Made by a program: the position numbers and the translations under genes. From NCBI RefSeq assembly GCF_024502345.1, contig NZ_JALDNN010000001.1: a DNA stretch of 64,000 nt; one strand, written 5' to 3'. Of this stretch, positions 13,560-17,825 are shown in pieces (the stretch's first letter is position 1; each line of letters begins with the position of its first letter). A model generated the notes under the pieces. The model saw nothing but the letters and a program-made list of their open reading frames with translations. It was not told the origin of the DNA and made no database searches. This DNA is from Escherichia coli. GTDB lineage: Bacteria; Pseudomonadota; Gammaproteobacteria; Enterobacterales; Enterobacteriaceae.

Positions 13560-13828
13560 CGTTGACTCCTTTTACAAAGTTGAACATTAAGTGTGGTCAA
13601 CAATATCTACTCTTGCCAAAACATAAGAATTTTCATGTCAGACTGTTCTTAAGAAACGCTAAAACAAACATTGTCTAAACGTATTACTTATTTTTATGCC
13701 TCAATGAGTAAAAAATCGACAACGGGGTAAAAATTCGTAAAATGTTACCGATATCCAGACACTTTCTGTTATTTTTCCTACCTATTTTTTACATTTTCGA
13801 TAAATTCATCTGCAAAGGGATAACCATA

Positions 13829-14929
13829 ATGTCAAATGCTCAAGAGGCGGTAAAAACCCGCCACAAGGAGACTTCACTTATTTTCCCGGTTCTGGCGCTG
13901 GTAGTGCTGTTCCTGTGGGGAAGCAGCCAGACACTACCAGTGGTCATTGCCATCAATCTTCTTGCGCTTATTGGTATTTTAAGTAGCGCCTTTAGTGTTG
14001 TCCGTCATGCGGACGTATTAGCCCATCGCCTGGGAGAACCTTACGGTTCGCTTATTCTTAGCCTTTCAGTGGTTATTCTTGAAGTTAGTTTGATTTCAGC
14101 TTTAATGGCAACTGGCGACGCCGCGCCAACGCTAATGCGTGATACGCTCTATTCAATCATTATGATTGTTACCGGTGGGCTGGTTGGCTTTTCATTATTG
14201 TTGGGCGGTCGTAAGTTTGCCACCCAATATATGAATCTGTTTGGTATCAAGCAGTATTTAATTGCGCTGTTCCCCCTGGCGATAATCGTACTGGTATTTC
14301 CAATGGCTCTGCCTGCGGCGAATTTTTCAACCGGTCAGGCGTTACTGGTAGCATTAATTTCTGCGGCAATGTATGGCGTATTTTTGCTGATCCAGACCAA
14401 AACGCATCAAAGTTTGTTTGTCTACGAGCACGAAGATGACAGTGATGACGACGACCCGCACCACGGTAAACCGTCTGCCCATAGCAGCCTGTGGCATGCT
14501 ATCTGGTTGATTATCCACCTGATTGCCGTTATTGCAGTCACCAAAATGAACGCCAGCCCGCTGGAGACTTTGCTCGACAGCATGAATGCCCCTGTCGCCT
14601 TTACTGGCTTCCTGGTGGCACTGTTGATTCTGTCGCCGGAAGGTTTAGGTGCATTAAAAGCAGTGTTGAACAACCAGGTCCAGCGCGCGATGAATCTGTT
14701 CTTTGGTTCAGTGTTAGCAACAATTTCGCTTACCGTACCTGTCGTCACGCTAATTGCCTTTATGACGGGTAACGAATTGCAGTTTGCACTTGGTGCGCCA
14801 GAAATGGTGGTGATGGTGGCCTCTTTAGTGCTGTGCCATATCTCCTTCTCCACCGGACGTACTAACGTGCTCAATGGCGCAGCGCATCTGGCACTGTTTG
14901 CCGCCTATTTGATGACGATATTTGCCTGA
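13829..14929 (+). CDS. chaA: Ca2+/H+ (Na+/H+) antiporter
   Basis: Start placed at internal ATG (MSNAQEAVKTRHKE...) for 366 aa; polytopic membrane protein; divergent from chaB. Confidence 0.92.
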   Translation: MSNAQEAVKTRHKETSLIFPVLALVVLFLWGSSQTLPVVIAINLLALIGILSSAFSVVRHADVLAHRLGEPYGSLILSLSVVILEVSLISALMATGDAAPTLMRDTLYSIIMIVTGGLVGFSLLLGGRKFATQYMNLFGIKQYLIALFPLAIIVLVFPMALPAANFSTGQALLVALISAAMYGVFLLIQTKTHQSLFVYEHEDDSDDDDPHHGKPSAHSSLWHAIWLIIHLIAVIAVTKMNASPLETLLDSMNAPVAFTGFLVALLILSPEGLGALKAVLNNQVQRAMNLFFGSVLATISLTVPVVTLIAFMTGNELQFALGAPEMVVMVASLVLCHISFSTGRTNVLNGAAHLALFAAYLMTIFA

Positions 14930-15217
14930 CAGTTATATCTCCTCCGATGACGGAAATCGGGGGAGATAATATAAATTCCTGCTTATTGTATTTCTTCATA
15001 CTACCTGGACAGGTCGTTAATCAGAATTGCGAGCCTGTACCACAACCTGCACGAATCCACTGCAACAGCTGTTGAAAAGCCGGAATGTACTCTTCATTGC
15101 AAACATTTCAGGGATGAAGTGAAGATGAATTGAGACGTAGTATCCACACCAAGCCGGCGTTATCCGGTGAGGCGCAATGTTGCGTGGGCTTTATCCCTGG
15201 TGGCATTGGTTGCTGGA

Positions 15218-15286
15218 AAGAGAAAACCCCCGCACGTTGAGAGGTAAAACCTGACAACAGAACGGGGGCTAATCTTGAAACCAGAC
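15218..15286 (-). ncRNA. rdl: Rdl antisense RNA (antitoxin), copy 1
   Basis: Minus-strand sequence GTCTGGTTTCAAGATTAGCCCCCGTTCTGTTGTCAGG...GCGGGGGTTTTCTCTT matches remembered Rdl RNA; GC stem plus U-run; 48-116 bp upstream of ldr ATG. Confidence 0.6.
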
Positions 15287-15333
15287 ACTTCAAGAATAGC
15301 CGCAAAATGTTGTCATTACAACAAGGCGGCTAT

Positions 15334-15441
15334 ATGACGCTCGCGCAGTTTGCCATGACTTTCTGGCACGACCTGGCGGCACCGATCCTGGCGGGAATTA
15401 TTACCGCAGCGATTGTCGGCTGGTGGCGTAACCGGAAGTAA
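15334..15441 (+). CDS. ldr: Ldr type I toxin peptide, 35 aa (MTLAQFAMTFWHDLAAPILAGIITAAIVGWWRNRK)
   Basis: 108-nt ORF below the ORF-track cutoff; single TM helix with basic C-terminus. Confidence 0.85.
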   Translation: MTLAQFAMTFWHDLAAPILAGIITAAIVGWWRNRK

Positions 15442-15488
15442 GGTGAAAACGGGCGTCAGGCTGCCGTGATGGCAATATGCGCCCGAAA

Positions 15489-15525
15489 CCGGCCGCAGGG
15501 GTAACAGCCTGCGGCCATTTTTGTC
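15489..15525 (+). terminator. Rho-independent terminator of ldr copy 1
   Basis: GGCCGCAGGGGTAACAGCCTGCGGCC hairpin followed by ATTTTTGTC. Confidence 0.6.
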
Positions 15526-15752
15526 TTTATCACTTCCACAAGTAAATATTGGCAACCCGAGCTGGAAGCATCATCCAGAGCACTCATGAAACGACTGTAA
15601 CAGCTGTTGAAAAACCGGAATGCACTCTTCATTGCAAACATTTCAGGGATGAAGTGAAGATGAATTGAGTCGTAGTATCCACACCAAGCCGGCGTTATCC
15701 GGTGAGGCGCAATGTTGCGGGGGCTTTATCCCTGGTGGCATTGGTTGCTGGA

Positions 15753-15821
15753 AAGAGAAAACCCCCGCACGTTGAGAGGTAAAACCTGACAACAGAACGG
15801 GGGCTAATCTTGAACCATCAA
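15753..15821 (-). ncRNA. rdl: Rdl antisense RNA (antitoxin), copy 2
   Basis: Second copy of the Rdl-like sequence, differing from copy 1 at its 5' end. Confidence 0.55.
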
Positions 15822-15869
15822 CAATTCAAGAATAGCCGCAAAATGTTGTCATTACAACAAGGCGGCTAT

Positions 15870-15977
15870 ATGACGCTCGCGCAGTTTGCCATGATTTTCT
15901 GGCATGACCTGGCAGCACCGATCCTGGCGGGAATTATTACCGCAGCGATTGTCGGCTGGTGGCGTAACCGGAAGTAA
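15870..15977 (+). CDS. ldr: Ldr type I toxin peptide, 35 aa (MTLAQFAMIFWHDLAAPILAGIITAAIVGWWRNRK)
   Basis: Second 108-nt ORF; differs from copy 1 by T9I. Confidence 0.85.
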   Translation: MTLAQFAMIFWHDLAAPILAGIITAAIVGWWRNRK

Positions 15978-16024
15978 GGCGAAAACGGGCGTCAGGCTGC
16001 CGTGATGGCAATATGCGCCCGAAA

Positions 16025-16060
16025 CCGGCCGCAGGGATAACAGCCTGCGGCCTTTTTTGT
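16025..16060 (+). terminator. Rho-independent terminator of ldr copy 2
   Basis: GGCCGCAGGGATAACAGCCTGCGGCC hairpin followed by TTTTTTG. Confidence 0.6.
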
Positions 16061-16125
16061 ATCCGGCACCCATGAAAAAAGTCTTAACGCAGAACGCTAA
16101 GACTTTATTTTTCAAGCAAAAAAGA

Positions 16126-16989
<864 letters not shown>

Positions 16990-17015
16990 TTAATCTTGAG
17001 TAAAATGTCGATTAA

Positions 17016-17825
17016 TTAATGCAGCACAATATGTTTATGCGCGATGTTATTTATTTGCGCACGGATCATTTCGCTGATCGGGTCTTCCGGACACTGTTCA
17101 ACGAAATAACTTAAATCGTTCAACGCAACGTGTTCGCAATCCAGTTGCGCATAAATCAACCCGCGATCGCGAATTTCATAGGGATCTTCAGGGTTGAATT
17201 GTAATAAAGCTTCGCTGGTGCGTAACGCCAGCTCCATCTGATTTTCTTCCATCAACGAGGCTTTGAGTGTATCCAGCAATTTGCGGATTACCTCAATGTT
17301 ATCAGCTTCATCAAGGTCTTCATAAAACAGTTCCGCCGACGGGCTGATATTTCCCTTTAACCATACGTCCAGCATATGTTCGCTTAACGATTCACCGTTA
17401 AAAGGATTAATCAGCCAAATTTCGCCATCCGGACACTCAATGCGCAATATCAGCTGCGTAGGGAAAATCACCGGCAGCAGCGGCAAATCGAGACGATTCG
17501 CGACCCATAATAAAACCGCACCTAATGATACCGCACTGCCCTGTCGATTCTTTAACACCTGGTCCAGCCATAATGCATCGGAAAGACGATAAACGCCGCG
17601 TGAGGCTTTAAATCCCCAGTCGCCGTAAAACAGCGCGATCAGTTTTTCCAGCTGCTCTTCTAAAGGCAGAAGCTGGCTGATTTCTTCCTTCGCCAGACTA
17701 ACGAGACGCTCCAGTTCGTCGTAAACATCTTGCGAGGGAAAATCGCGGCGGATTGCTTCGCAAGCCAGGATCATGCCTTCGCACAATGGCGCTTTATTAA
17801 ATTCGAAATCAGCTAACGATCTCAT
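17016..17825 (-). CDS. sirB1: SirB1/YchA family protein
   Basis: 269-aa ORF in the conserved position between kdsA and prmC. Confidence 0.8.
   Translation of the reverse strand: MRSLADFEFNKAPLCEGMILACEAIRRDFPSQDVYDELERLVSLAKEEISQLLPLEEQLEKLIALFYGDWGFKASRGVYRLSDALWLDQVLKNRQGSAVSLGAVLLWVANRLDLPLLPVIFPTQLILRIECPDGEIWLINPFNGESLSEHMLDVWLKGNISPSAELFYEDLDEADNIEVIRKLLDTLKASLMEENQMELALRTSEALLQFNPEDPYEIRDRGLIYAQLDCEHVALNDLSYFVEQCPEDPISEMIRAQINNIAHKHIVLH

What the first reader, a model, noticed from the sequence alone, without database searches (positions are those of the whole stretch)
15064..16060. Two tandem Ldr/Rdl type I toxin-antitoxin modules invisible to the ORF track
Each ~536-bp unit encodes a 35-aa Ldr toxin (15334-15441 and 15870-15977), an antisense Rdl RNA on the opposite strand and a terminator hairpin. 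The ORF track instead shows spurious 79- and 87-codon antisense ORFs here. The two toxins differ at residue 9 (T versus I) and the two Rdl copies differ at their 5' ends. As I remember it, K-12 has three copies at this locus, so the array appears to vary in copy number.
Basis: partly seen in the sequence, partly recalled or inferred. Interest (0 to 1): 0.5.

Follow-up and report, generated by a model that had tools for sequence, protein, structure and literature searches.

The report
Two tandem Ldr/Rdl toxin-antitoxin modules
This stretch of an E. coli chromosome holds two tandem copies of the well-known Ldr/Rdl small-toxin and antisense-RNA module, an ordinary arrangement that is already annotated in many sequenced strains.

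Summary
Between chaA and kdsA lie two ~536-bp "long direct repeat" (LDR) units. Each has a 35-aa Ldr toxin ORF (15334-15441, 15870-15977; Pfam Ldr_toxin, E=3e-26). Each also has an Rdl antisense RNA on the minus strand (15221-15286, 15756-15821; Rfam rdlD, 91 and 84 bits against a gathering score of 50) and an intrinsic terminator.

Unit 1's toxin gene and Rdl are base-for-base identical to K-12 ldrB and rdlB. RefSeq annotates both toxins at these positions in near-identical loci of other strains.

K-12 has three units here. In an evenly spaced sample of 59 complete E. coli genomes the array has 1 unit (15 genomes), 2 (17), 3 (26) or 4 (1), so copy number does vary. The window's two-unit form recurs in independent closed genomes, including O157:H7 and O55:H7.

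The 79- and 87-codon antisense ORFs exist but are almost certainly spurious.

One small addition: the Rdl 5' end, where the two copies differ, pairs with a predicted hairpin loop in the ldr leader. That loop is the most variable spot of the whole unit, with three alleles across strains.

Verdict: real, correctly interpreted, already known, low interest.

The parts
15048..15524 (+). LDR unit 1 (chaA-proximal), carrying the 'alpha' leader-loop allele
   Evidence: Direct repeat. Alignment with K-12 LDR-A/B/C: 98.3% to LDR-C over the full unit, and the ORF is identical to ldrB.
15525..15583 (+). Inter-unit spacer. It is also found between units in K-12.
   Evidence: Alignment.
15584..16060 (+). 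LDR unit 2 (kdsA-proximal), with the 'beta' leader-loop allele and a gamma-like ORF and 3' part
15334..15441 (+). ldr toxin gene 1: 35 aa, T9, identical to K-12 LdrB (RefSeq WP_000170963.1)
   Evidence: Pfam Ldr_toxin E=3.3e-26. 108/108 nt identical to ldrB. Annotated at the same position in NZ_CP049201.1.
15870..15977 (+). ldr toxin gene 2: 35 aa, I9/G29 (RefSeq WP_000170954.1)
   Evidence: Translation. Annotated at the same position in NZ_CP049201.1 and other genomes.
15221..15286 (-). Rdl antisense RNA 1, identical to K-12 rdlB. It consists of a 5' tail plus a terminator-like stem-loop and a U tail.
   Evidence: Rfam RF01813 at 91.4 bits. Identity to rdlB. Fold of -26.7 kcal/mol, z=-4.5. 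Terminator-like site.
15756..15821 (-). Rdl antisense RNA 2. Its body is identical to Rdl 1; its 5' end is a non-K-12 allele, and the exact 5' end has not been mapped.
   Evidence: Rfam RF01813 at 83.6 bits..
15491..15524 (+). Intrinsic terminator of ldr mRNA 1
   Evidence: 9-bp stem with 8 GC pairs, followed by a T run.
16027..16058 (+). Intrinsic terminator of ldr mRNA 2
15273..15295 (+). Predicted leader hairpin 1. The 7-bp stem contains the TTG at 15275. The 9-nt loop (15280-15288) is complementary to Rdl nt 1-7 and is the hypervariable spot of the unit.
   Evidence: Fold. Column entropy over 23 units. Alleles.
15808..15831 (+). Predicted leader hairpin 2, with the same stem and a 10-nt loop of the beta allele
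15296..15333 (+). Predicted hairpin immediately upstream of the ldr-1 ATG. It encloses the Shine-Dalgarno-like AAGGCGG.
   Evidence: Fold of 15255-15345: -30.4 kcal/mol, z=-5.6.
15832..15869 (+). The equivalent hairpin upstream of the ldr-2 ATG
15275..15337 (+). Candidate leader ORF of unit 1 (20 codons, TTG start inside the Rdl target). Its TGA stop overlaps the ldr ATG as ATGA. It may be the proposed 'ldrX'.
   Evidence: ORF list. The ldrX hypothesis is described in PMC4147584. The identification is an inference.
15810..15869 (+). The equivalent TTG-initiated reading frame in unit 2. Because of the 1-nt insertion it is in frame with ldr and would give a 55-aa extended product, as in K-12 LDR-D.
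15293..15321 (-). Inferred Rdl-1 promoter: TTGTAA, 17-nt spacer, TATTCT, with the -10 hexamer ending 6 nt before 15286. The same hexamers occur at 15829-15857 for Rdl-2.
   Evidence: Read directly from the sequence. It matches 8 of 12 consensus positions, below the scanner's threshold (one search found none). Inference only.
15316..15555 (-). Spurious 79-codon antisense ORF
   Evidence: No NCBIfam match. Not annotated. The frame is broken in LDR-D.
15852..16115 (-). Spurious 87-codon antisense ORF. Its start lies in unique sequence next to kdsA.

Best explanation
This is the chaA-kdsA LDR locus of an Escherichia coli chromosome, carrying two tandem Ldr/Rdl type I toxin-antitoxin modules.

How each module works: a plus-strand mRNA with a long 5' leader encodes a 35-aa single-pass inner-membrane peptide, Ldr. 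When over-produced, Ldr damages the membrane, stops ATP synthesis and condenses the nucleoid. A ~66-nt Rdl RNA made from the opposite strand pairs with the leader upstream of the ldr start codon and keeps the toxin from being translated.

Inferred from the sequence: the ldr ribosome-binding site sits inside a stable hairpin, so translation probably depends on ribosomes arriving from an upstream reading frame. That frame starts at a TTG inside the Rdl target (the proposed ldrX coupling, analogous to mok/hok). Rdl's single-stranded 5' tail pairs with the loop of the hairpin that holds this TTG. Pairing would block that start, and it creates an RNase III substrate.

Origin of the two-unit array: it is one of several natural states (1 to 4 units) produced by unequal recombination and gene conversion between the repeats. 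The window's form (alpha plus beta) looks like a derivative of the alpha-beta-gamma three-unit array, with the junction inside unit 2.

The confidence given applies to the identification. The coupling mechanism itself I rate at about 0.6.
For: Shown here:
- Repeat structure.
- Pfam Ldr_toxin, E=3.3e-26.
- Unit 1's ORF and Rdl are identical to K-12 ldrB and rdlB.
- Rfam rdlD at 91.4 and 83.6 bits against a gathering score of 50.
- Terminators.
- Same flanking genes as K-12.
- RefSeq annotates both toxins at these coordinates in a 99.8%-identical locus.
- Copy number of 1/2/3/4 in 15/17/26/1 of 59 sampled genomes.
- Array compositions.
- Diagnostic sites place a beta/gamma junction at 15820-15881.
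- Leader hairpins fold at -30 kcal/mol, z about -5.5.
- Unit 1's leader ORF ends in an ATGA overlap with the ldr start.

From the literature:
- LdrD toxicity, RdlD repression and the ldrX hypothesis (PMC4147584; PMC8167048).
- LdrA membrane localisation and inhibition of ATP synthesis (PMC12643268).
- An RNase III-dependent dsRNA at the ldrD/rdlD overlap (PMC7373196).
- Lineage-specific duplications and losses of Ldr (PMC2887945).
Against: - Nothing contradicts the identification.
- The mechanistic details are not shown for these copies. Only LdrD/RdlD and LdrA have been studied experimentally, and the reviews themselves call the ldrX coupling a hypothesis.
- The relation of the leader frame to ldr differs between the two units: an ATGA overlap in unit 1, in frame in unit 2. 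A single fixed 'leader peptide' is therefore not conserved.
- No sigma-70 consensus promoter was detected for ldr or rdl by the scanner.
- The beta/gamma junction rests on few diagnostic sites.
Confidence: 0.95

Rival explanations
1. Assembly artefact: the strain really has three units (alpha-beta-gamma), and the assembler collapsed two of them, producing the hybrid-looking unit 2.
For: Unit 2 looks like a beta 5' part joined to a gamma-like 3' part. A repeat collapse would produce exactly that. Three-unit arrays are the commonest state.
Against: The same two-unit structure aligns as a single ungapped piece at 99.5-99.8% in at least 30 independent complete genomes. These include closed O55:H7 and O157:H7 chromosomes and the loci L002, L009 and L010. 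It is therefore a real, inherited allele.
Confidence: 0.04
2. The 79- and 87-codon minus-strand ORFs are the real genes, and the 35-aa ORFs are incidental.
For: They are the longest ORFs in the region, and they stay open in all K-12 units.
Against: - They have no NCBIfam match and are not annotated in RefSeq.
- Their starts lie in non-homologous flank sequence, so their N-termini differ.
- The frame carries stop codons in the paralogue LDR-D, whereas the Ldr ORF is kept there.
- They would have to be transcribed antisense through the ldr terminator.
- The Ldr ORF matches a curated family, and the family has experimental support.
Confidence: 0.01
3. Rdl represses mainly by triggering RNase III cleavage and decay of the ldr mRNA, or by reshaping the leader fold, rather than by blocking a translationally coupled leader ORF.
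For: A ~21-nt RNase III-dependent dsRNA maps to the ldrD/rdlD overlap, and RNA half-lives change in an rnc mutant (PMC7373196). The leader ORF's frame relation to ldr is not conserved between units, which weakens the case for a strict ldrX model.
Against: The change in stability in rnc mutants was described as slight. The ribosome-binding site is predicted to be sequestered, and a TTG start preceded by GGGGG lies inside the Rdl target in every unit. Both fit the coupling model.
Confidence: 0.3
4. One of the two modules is an inactive relic.
For: Decayed units do exist elsewhere. Examples are the two middle units of the 4-copy array in L003 and a 5-nt deletion in the Rdl stem of O157:H7 unit 1. 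The 5' end of Rdl-2 is a non-K-12 allele, and its transcription start has not been mapped.
Against: In the window both ORFs are intact and equal widely conserved RefSeq proteins. Both Rdl stem-loops, both terminators and both inferred Rdl promoters are intact and identical.
Confidence: 0.08

Closest known systems
E. coli K-12 LDR-A/B/C array (ldrA-rdlA, ldrB-rdlB, ldrC-rdlC) between kdsA and chaA
   Same: Same chromosomal gap, same unit length (~535 bp) and same internal layout. Unit 1's ORF and Rdl are identical to ldrB and rdlB. Unit 1 is 98.3% identical to LDR-C and unit 2 is 98.1% identical to LDR-A over the full unit.
   Different: There are two units instead of three. Unit 2 carries the 'beta' leader-loop/Rdl 5' allele (ACCATCAACAAT, +1 nt), which MG1655 lacks, and its toxin is I9/G29 rather than LdrA's I9/S29.
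Two-unit LDR arrays annotated in RefSeq E. coli genomes (e.g. NZ_CP049201.1, O55:H7 CB9615, O157:H7 G5295)
   Same: Essentially the same allele: 99.5-99.8% identity over 1.7 kb in one ungapped piece, and the same two toxin proteins, WP_000170963.1 and WP_000170954.1.
   Different: Nothing of substance. In O157:H7, unit 1 has a 5-nt deletion in the Rdl stem that the window lacks.
LdrD/RdlD (LDR-D), the experimentally characterised member
   Same: A 35-aa toxin of the same Pfam family, Rdl antisense to the 5' leader, and the same hairpin architecture. Its TTG leader frame is in frame with the toxin ORF, as in window unit 2.
   Different: It is a single copy at a different locus (bcsG-yhjV). The literature gives 74% amino-acid identity between LdrD and LdrA (PMC12643268). 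Its loop sequence is different.
hok/mok/sok of plasmid R1 and the chromosomal hok loci
   Same: The logic is the same: a small membrane toxin, a long structured leader, an antisense RNA that targets an upstream reading frame rather than the toxin's own ribosome-binding site, and an antisense 5' tail meeting a target hairpin loop. The Rfam sok/hok-leader model gives weak hits over the ldr leaders (27 and 23 bits against a gathering score of 59).
   Different: The toxin families are unrelated. The Rfam hits fall below threshold, so this is an analogy and not membership.
Ibs/Sib tandem type I modules
   Same: Tandemly duplicated type I modules in one intergenic region. Cognate discrimination there is set by a few nucleotides (PMC2943612, abstract listed).
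   Different: Sib overlaps the whole ibs ORF. Discrimination among Rdl copies has not been tested.

Membership tests
Ldr toxin family (Pfam PF13940) | Full-length match to the 35-residue Ldr_toxin profile | tested here: met
   E=3.3e-26, 91.5 bits, residues 1-35 against model positions 1-35. The NCBIfam hmmscan gave no hit, so the assignment rests on Pfam and on identity to K-12 proteins.
Ldr toxin family (Pfam PF13940) | Near-identity to the named K-12 proteins LdrA/B/C | tested here: met
   Toxin 1 equals LdrB (35/35 aa, 108/108 nt). Toxin 2 differs from LdrA/LdrC at one residue, G29 versus S29.
Ldr toxin family (Pfam PF13940) | Hydrophobic transmembrane stretch followed by a conserved Trp and a charged C-terminus (the Ldr/Fst signature described in PMC2887945) | tested here: met
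   Read directly from the sequence: LAAPILAGIITAAIVGWW followed by RNRK. The signature is described.
Ldr toxin family (Pfam PF13940) | Toxic when over-expressed | not testable with these tools
   Shown for LdrD and LdrA in the literature, not for these exact alleles, although toxin 1 is identical to LdrB.
Rdl antitoxin RNA (Rfam RF01813) | Covariance-model score above the gathering threshold over the full model | tested here: met
   91.4 and 83.6 bits against 50, model positions 1-66 of 66.
Rdl antitoxin RNA (Rfam RF01813) | Encoded antisense to the ldr 5' leader, not overlapping the ldr start codon | tested here: met
   Each Rdl lies 48 nt upstream of its ldr ATG on the opposite strand: 15221-15286 versus ATG 15334, and 15756-15821 versus ATG 15870.
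Rdl antitoxin RNA (Rfam RF01813) | Transcribed as a small RNA that represses the cognate toxin | not testable with these tools
   Needs RNA-seq or northern blots and a co-expression assay.
LDR (long direct repeat) elements of E. coli | A ~530-bp unit repeated in tandem in the chaA-kdsA intergenic region | tested here: met
   Spacing of 535/536 bp. Flanking genes chaA and kdsA.
hok/sok-like coupling mechanism (ldrX leader ORF) | An upstream ORF whose start lies in the antisense target and whose translation is coupled to the toxin start | tested here: inconclusive
   A TTG preceded by GGGGG lies inside the Rdl target in all units. In unit 1 the frame stops in an ATGA overlap with ldr; in unit 2 it is in frame with ldr. 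The ribosome-binding-site hairpin is predicted. Coupling itself has not been tested.
hok/sok (Rfam RF01794) | Score above the gathering threshold | tested here: not met
   27.0 and 22.9 bits against 59. The loci are not members of this family.

The most novel reading that the evidence does not exclude
The hypervariable leader hairpin loop, together with the complementary Rdl 5' tail, may be the recognition determinant of the system. It has three alleles (alpha, beta, gamma), and the commonest arrays carry one of each. On this reading, tandem modules in one array would be partly insulated from each other's antitoxins, as shown for Sib/Ibs. The loss or conversion of units seen in different lineages would then change which toxins are cross-protected. 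The beta allele, present in window unit 2 and absent from K-12, also shifts the leader frame, so it could alter coupling or yield an N-terminally extended Ldr.
Probability: 0.2. Interest if true: 0.35.

Novelty: already known. Interest (0 to 1): 0.1.

Why it matters
It matters little beyond correct annotation. Ldr/Rdl is a textbook chromosomal type I toxin-antitoxin family, and this two-unit allele is already annotated in many RefSeq genomes.

The practical lesson is that ORF tracks with a 60-codon floor miss these genes and show misleading antisense ORFs in their place.

There is one modest scientific hook. The natural allelic series at the Rdl 5' tail and the leader loop, and the array states alpha-beta-gamma, alpha-alpha-gamma, alpha-beta, beta-gamma and single units, could serve as ready-made variants. 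They could be used to test the still-unproven ldrX coupling model and cross-talk between tandem antitoxins.

Tried and rejected
- NCBIfam hmmscan of the two 35-aa peptides and the two antisense ORFs gave no hits. For the toxins this is a false negative of that library or its filters, because Pfam matched strongly.
- The sigma-70 consensus scan found no promoter in 14900-16150. The Rdl promoter given in the parts list is read by eye at 8 of 12 matches and is only an inference. The ldr promoter was not located.
- The primary papers could not be read because they are not held: Kawano 2002 (DNA Res), Kawano 2012 (RNA Biol) and Fozo 2008 (MMBR). What I cite from them comes through reviews.
- A plasmid search found only 18 records, all non-mobilizable and several of chromosome size. 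There is therefore no evidence that the unit is plasmid-borne.
- I considered within-array distinctness of loop alleles as a rule and rejected it, because K-12 carries alpha-alpha-gamma.
- No further LDR unit, tRNA or large tandem array was found elsewhere in the window.

Full report
**What is there**

The window is Escherichia coli chromosome. A 1.7-kb query around the finding matches 5,425 of 5,426 complete E. coli genomes. The finding lies between chaA (ends at 14929, + strand) and kdsA (16126-16980, - strand).

Two direct-repeat families with spacings of 535 and 536 bp cover the interval. The homologous core of each unit is about 15048-15524 and 15584-16060, with a ~58-bp spacer between them.

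**The toxin genes**

- The ORFs at 15334-15441 and 15870-15977 each encode 35 residues and differ only at residue 9, T versus I.
- The first matches Pfam Ldr_toxin end to end (E=3.3e-26). At the nucleotide level it is identical to K-12 ldrB (108/108).
- The second differs from LdrA and LdrC at one residue.
- In a 99.8%-identical locus of strain PapRG-04-4, RefSeq annotates "type I toxin-antitoxin system toxin Ldr family protein" at positions that map exactly onto 15334-15441 and 15870-15977.
- An NCBIfam scan gave no hit for these peptides. I regard that as a false negative.

**The antisense RNAs**

- Rfam's rdlD model matches 15221-15286(-) at 91.4 bits and 15756-15821(-) at 83.6 bits, against a gathering score of 50 and over the full model.
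- Rdl-1 is identical to K-12 rdlB.
- Rdl-2 has the same 59-nt body but differs at 5 of the first 7 nt, and unit 2 is 1 nt longer at that point.
- Both fold into the expected terminator-like stem-loop with a U tail (z about -4.5).
- Each ldr ORF is followed by a strong intrinsic terminator, at 15491-15516 and 16027-16052.

**The long antisense ORFs**

The 79- and 87-codon minus-strand ORFs exist. I consider them spurious for these reasons:
- They have no NCBIfam match.
- They are not annotated in K-12 or in the near-identical RefSeq locus.
- They start in non-homologous flank sequence.
- In the divergent paralogue LDR-D the corresponding frame is broken by stop codons, while the Ldr ORF is kept.

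They stay open in the K-12 A/B/C units. That says little, because those units are about 97% identical in this region.

The toxin ORFs are "invisible" only because of a length cut-off. With a 20-aa minimum they are listed as 44- and 55-aa ORFs running from upstream in-frame starts.

**Copy number**

K-12 MG1655 has three units here: ldrC, ldrB and ldrA, counting from chaA. I searched with 3 kb of each unique flank joined together and took 60 rows spread evenly down the ranking. In 59 of them both flanks were joined, so the insert could be measured. The annotations of representatives confirm the counts.

| Units | Genomes (of 59) | Insert size and notes |
|---|---|---|
| 1 | 15 | ~0.54 kb |
| 2 | 17 | 15 at ~1.07 kb; two more at 1.78 kb, one of which was checked and is two units plus an IS200C |
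| 3 | 26 | ~1.61 kb |
| 4 | 1 | 2.05 kb; the two middle units are decayed |

So the array does vary, and three is merely the commonest state. Lineage-specific duplication and loss of Ldr loci has been in the literature since at least 2010 (PMC2887945).

The window's two-unit form recurs as a single ungapped alignment at 99.5-99.8% in at least 30 independent complete genomes, including O55:H7 and O157:H7. An assembly collapse is therefore unlikely, though I cannot check the reads.

**How the two-unit array relates to the others**

I aligned 23 intact units from 13 arrays. The most variable 10 columns of the whole unit fall exactly at 15280-15288. Three alleles occur there:
- alpha: AACCAGACACT
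- beta: ACCATCAACAAT, one nucleotide longer
- gamma: ACCAGAACAAT

| Array state | Where seen |
|---|---|
| alpha-beta-gamma | L008, L011 |
| alpha-alpha-gamma | K-12 |
| alpha-beta | the window, O157:H7 G5295, CV839-06 |
| beta-gamma | L004, L012, L013 |
| single alpha / beta / gamma | L015 / L014 / L005 |

I compared window unit 2 with a closely related alpha-beta-gamma array. It is mostly beta-like up to 15819 (three sites, at 15581 and 15693-15694, match gamma) and gamma-like from 15882 onward. This is what unequal crossing-over between the beta and gamma units would leave. Only three sites support the right-hand side, so the inference is tentative.

Unit 2's Rdl 5' end is thus an allele that K-12 does not have. 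That explains its lower Rfam score.

**Mechanism**

From the literature:
- LdrD over-production kills E. coli and RdlD counteracts it.
- Rdl overlaps the 5' leader rather than the ribosome-binding site.
- A leader ORF, ldrX, has been proposed to couple translation as mok does for hok, but this remains unconfirmed (PMC4147584; PMC8167048).
- LdrA is an inner-membrane peptide that inhibits ATP synthesis, presumably by forming pores (PMC12643268).
- An RNase III-dependent dsRNA maps to the ldrD/rdlD overlap (PMC7373196).

From the sequence here, the 80 nt before each ldr ATG fold into two hairpins (about -30 kcal/mol, z about -5.5):
- The first (15273-15295) holds a TTG at 15275 in its stem, preceded by GGGGG. 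It presents the hypervariable loop, to which Rdl nt 1-7 are complementary.
- The second (15296-15333) encloses the Shine-Dalgarno-like AAGGCGG.

In unit 1 the TTG frame runs 20 codons and stops at a TGA that overlaps the ldr ATG as ATGA, a classic coupling arrangement. In unit 2 the extra nucleotide puts the same TTG in frame with ldr, giving 55 codons. The same is true in K-12 LDR-D, the one experimentally studied copy.

I therefore think the coupling model is the most likely one, at roughly 60%. RNase III-driven decay or leader refolding is the main alternative or an additional layer. All of this is inference for these copies.

The Rdl promoter I list (TTGTAA, 17-nt spacer, TATTCT, correctly spaced from 15286) is read by eye and falls below the scanner's threshold. 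The ldr promoter was not located.

**Comparison and verdict**

The locus meets every sequence-level criterion for the Ldr toxin family, the Rdl RNA family and the LDR repeat class. Functional criteria cannot be tested here. It resembles hok/sok in logic but is not a member of that family: the Rfam sok model gives 27 and 23 bits against a threshold of 59.

The finding is real and correctly interpreted, but already known and already annotated in public genomes. The only mildly new angle is that the Rdl 5' tail and the leader loop coincide with the variability hotspot of the unit and come in three alleles. That would bear on antitoxin specificity between tandem copies, but K-12's alpha-alpha-gamma array shows that distinctness within an array is not obligatory.

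Interest is 0.1.

Noticed in passing
window 15280-15288 and 15815-15824 (also loci L003-L015): The loop of a predicted hairpin in the ldr leader is complementary to the first 7 nt of Rdl. It is the most variable 10-column stretch of the whole LDR unit across 23 units from 13 E. coli arrays, and it has just three alleles. Many arrays carry different alleles in each unit.
   Followed up: partly
window 15275-15337 versus 15810-15977: The TTG-initiated leader frame ends in an ATGA overlap with ldr in unit 1. A 1-nt insertion puts it in frame with ldr in unit 2, as also happens in K-12 LDR-D. The proposed 'ldrX' peptide is therefore not conserved as a separate ORF.
   Followed up: partly
L009 (E. 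coli O157:H7 G5295), ~70 nt upstream of the unit 1 ldr ATG at 3332: The O157:H7 chaA-proximal unit has a 5-nt deletion (ACAACAGGGCTAATC instead of ACAACAGAACGGGGGCTAATC). It removes part of the Rdl stem, so this Rdl copy may be defective while its toxin ORF stays intact.
   Followed up: no
L003 (strain d1-58) 3871-4416: This is a four-unit array whose two middle units are decayed: the annotated Ldr ORFs are 29 and 34 codons, and there are internal deletions. It could be real decay or sequencing errors in a repeat.
   Followed up: no
L004 (strain WP7-S18-ESBL-09) 4184-4642: An IS200C transposase gene is inserted between the last LDR unit and kdsA. A second sampled genome (H84) has the same insert size.
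   Followed up: no
window 15186-15336 and 15719-15872 (+): The Rfam sok/hok-leader model (RF01794) gives sub-threshold hits over the ldr leaders (23-27 bits against 59). This echoes the proposed architectural analogy between hok/sok and ldr/rdl.
   Followed up: no
window 62511-62589 (-): A strong match to the Rfam family C0299 sRNA (111.9 bits against a gathering score of 40).
   Followed up: no
window 13742-14929 (+): The mechanical ORF for chaA starts at 13742 and is 395 aa long. RefSeq annotates chaA as 1101 nt (366 aa), which corresponds to a start at 13829. The upstream extension is probably not translated.
   Followed up: no
window 16057-17019 (+): A 320-codon ORF lies antisense to kdsA. 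The same antisense ORF is open in K-12 (L001 1127-2089). It is another long shadow ORF opposite a real gene.
   Followed up: no
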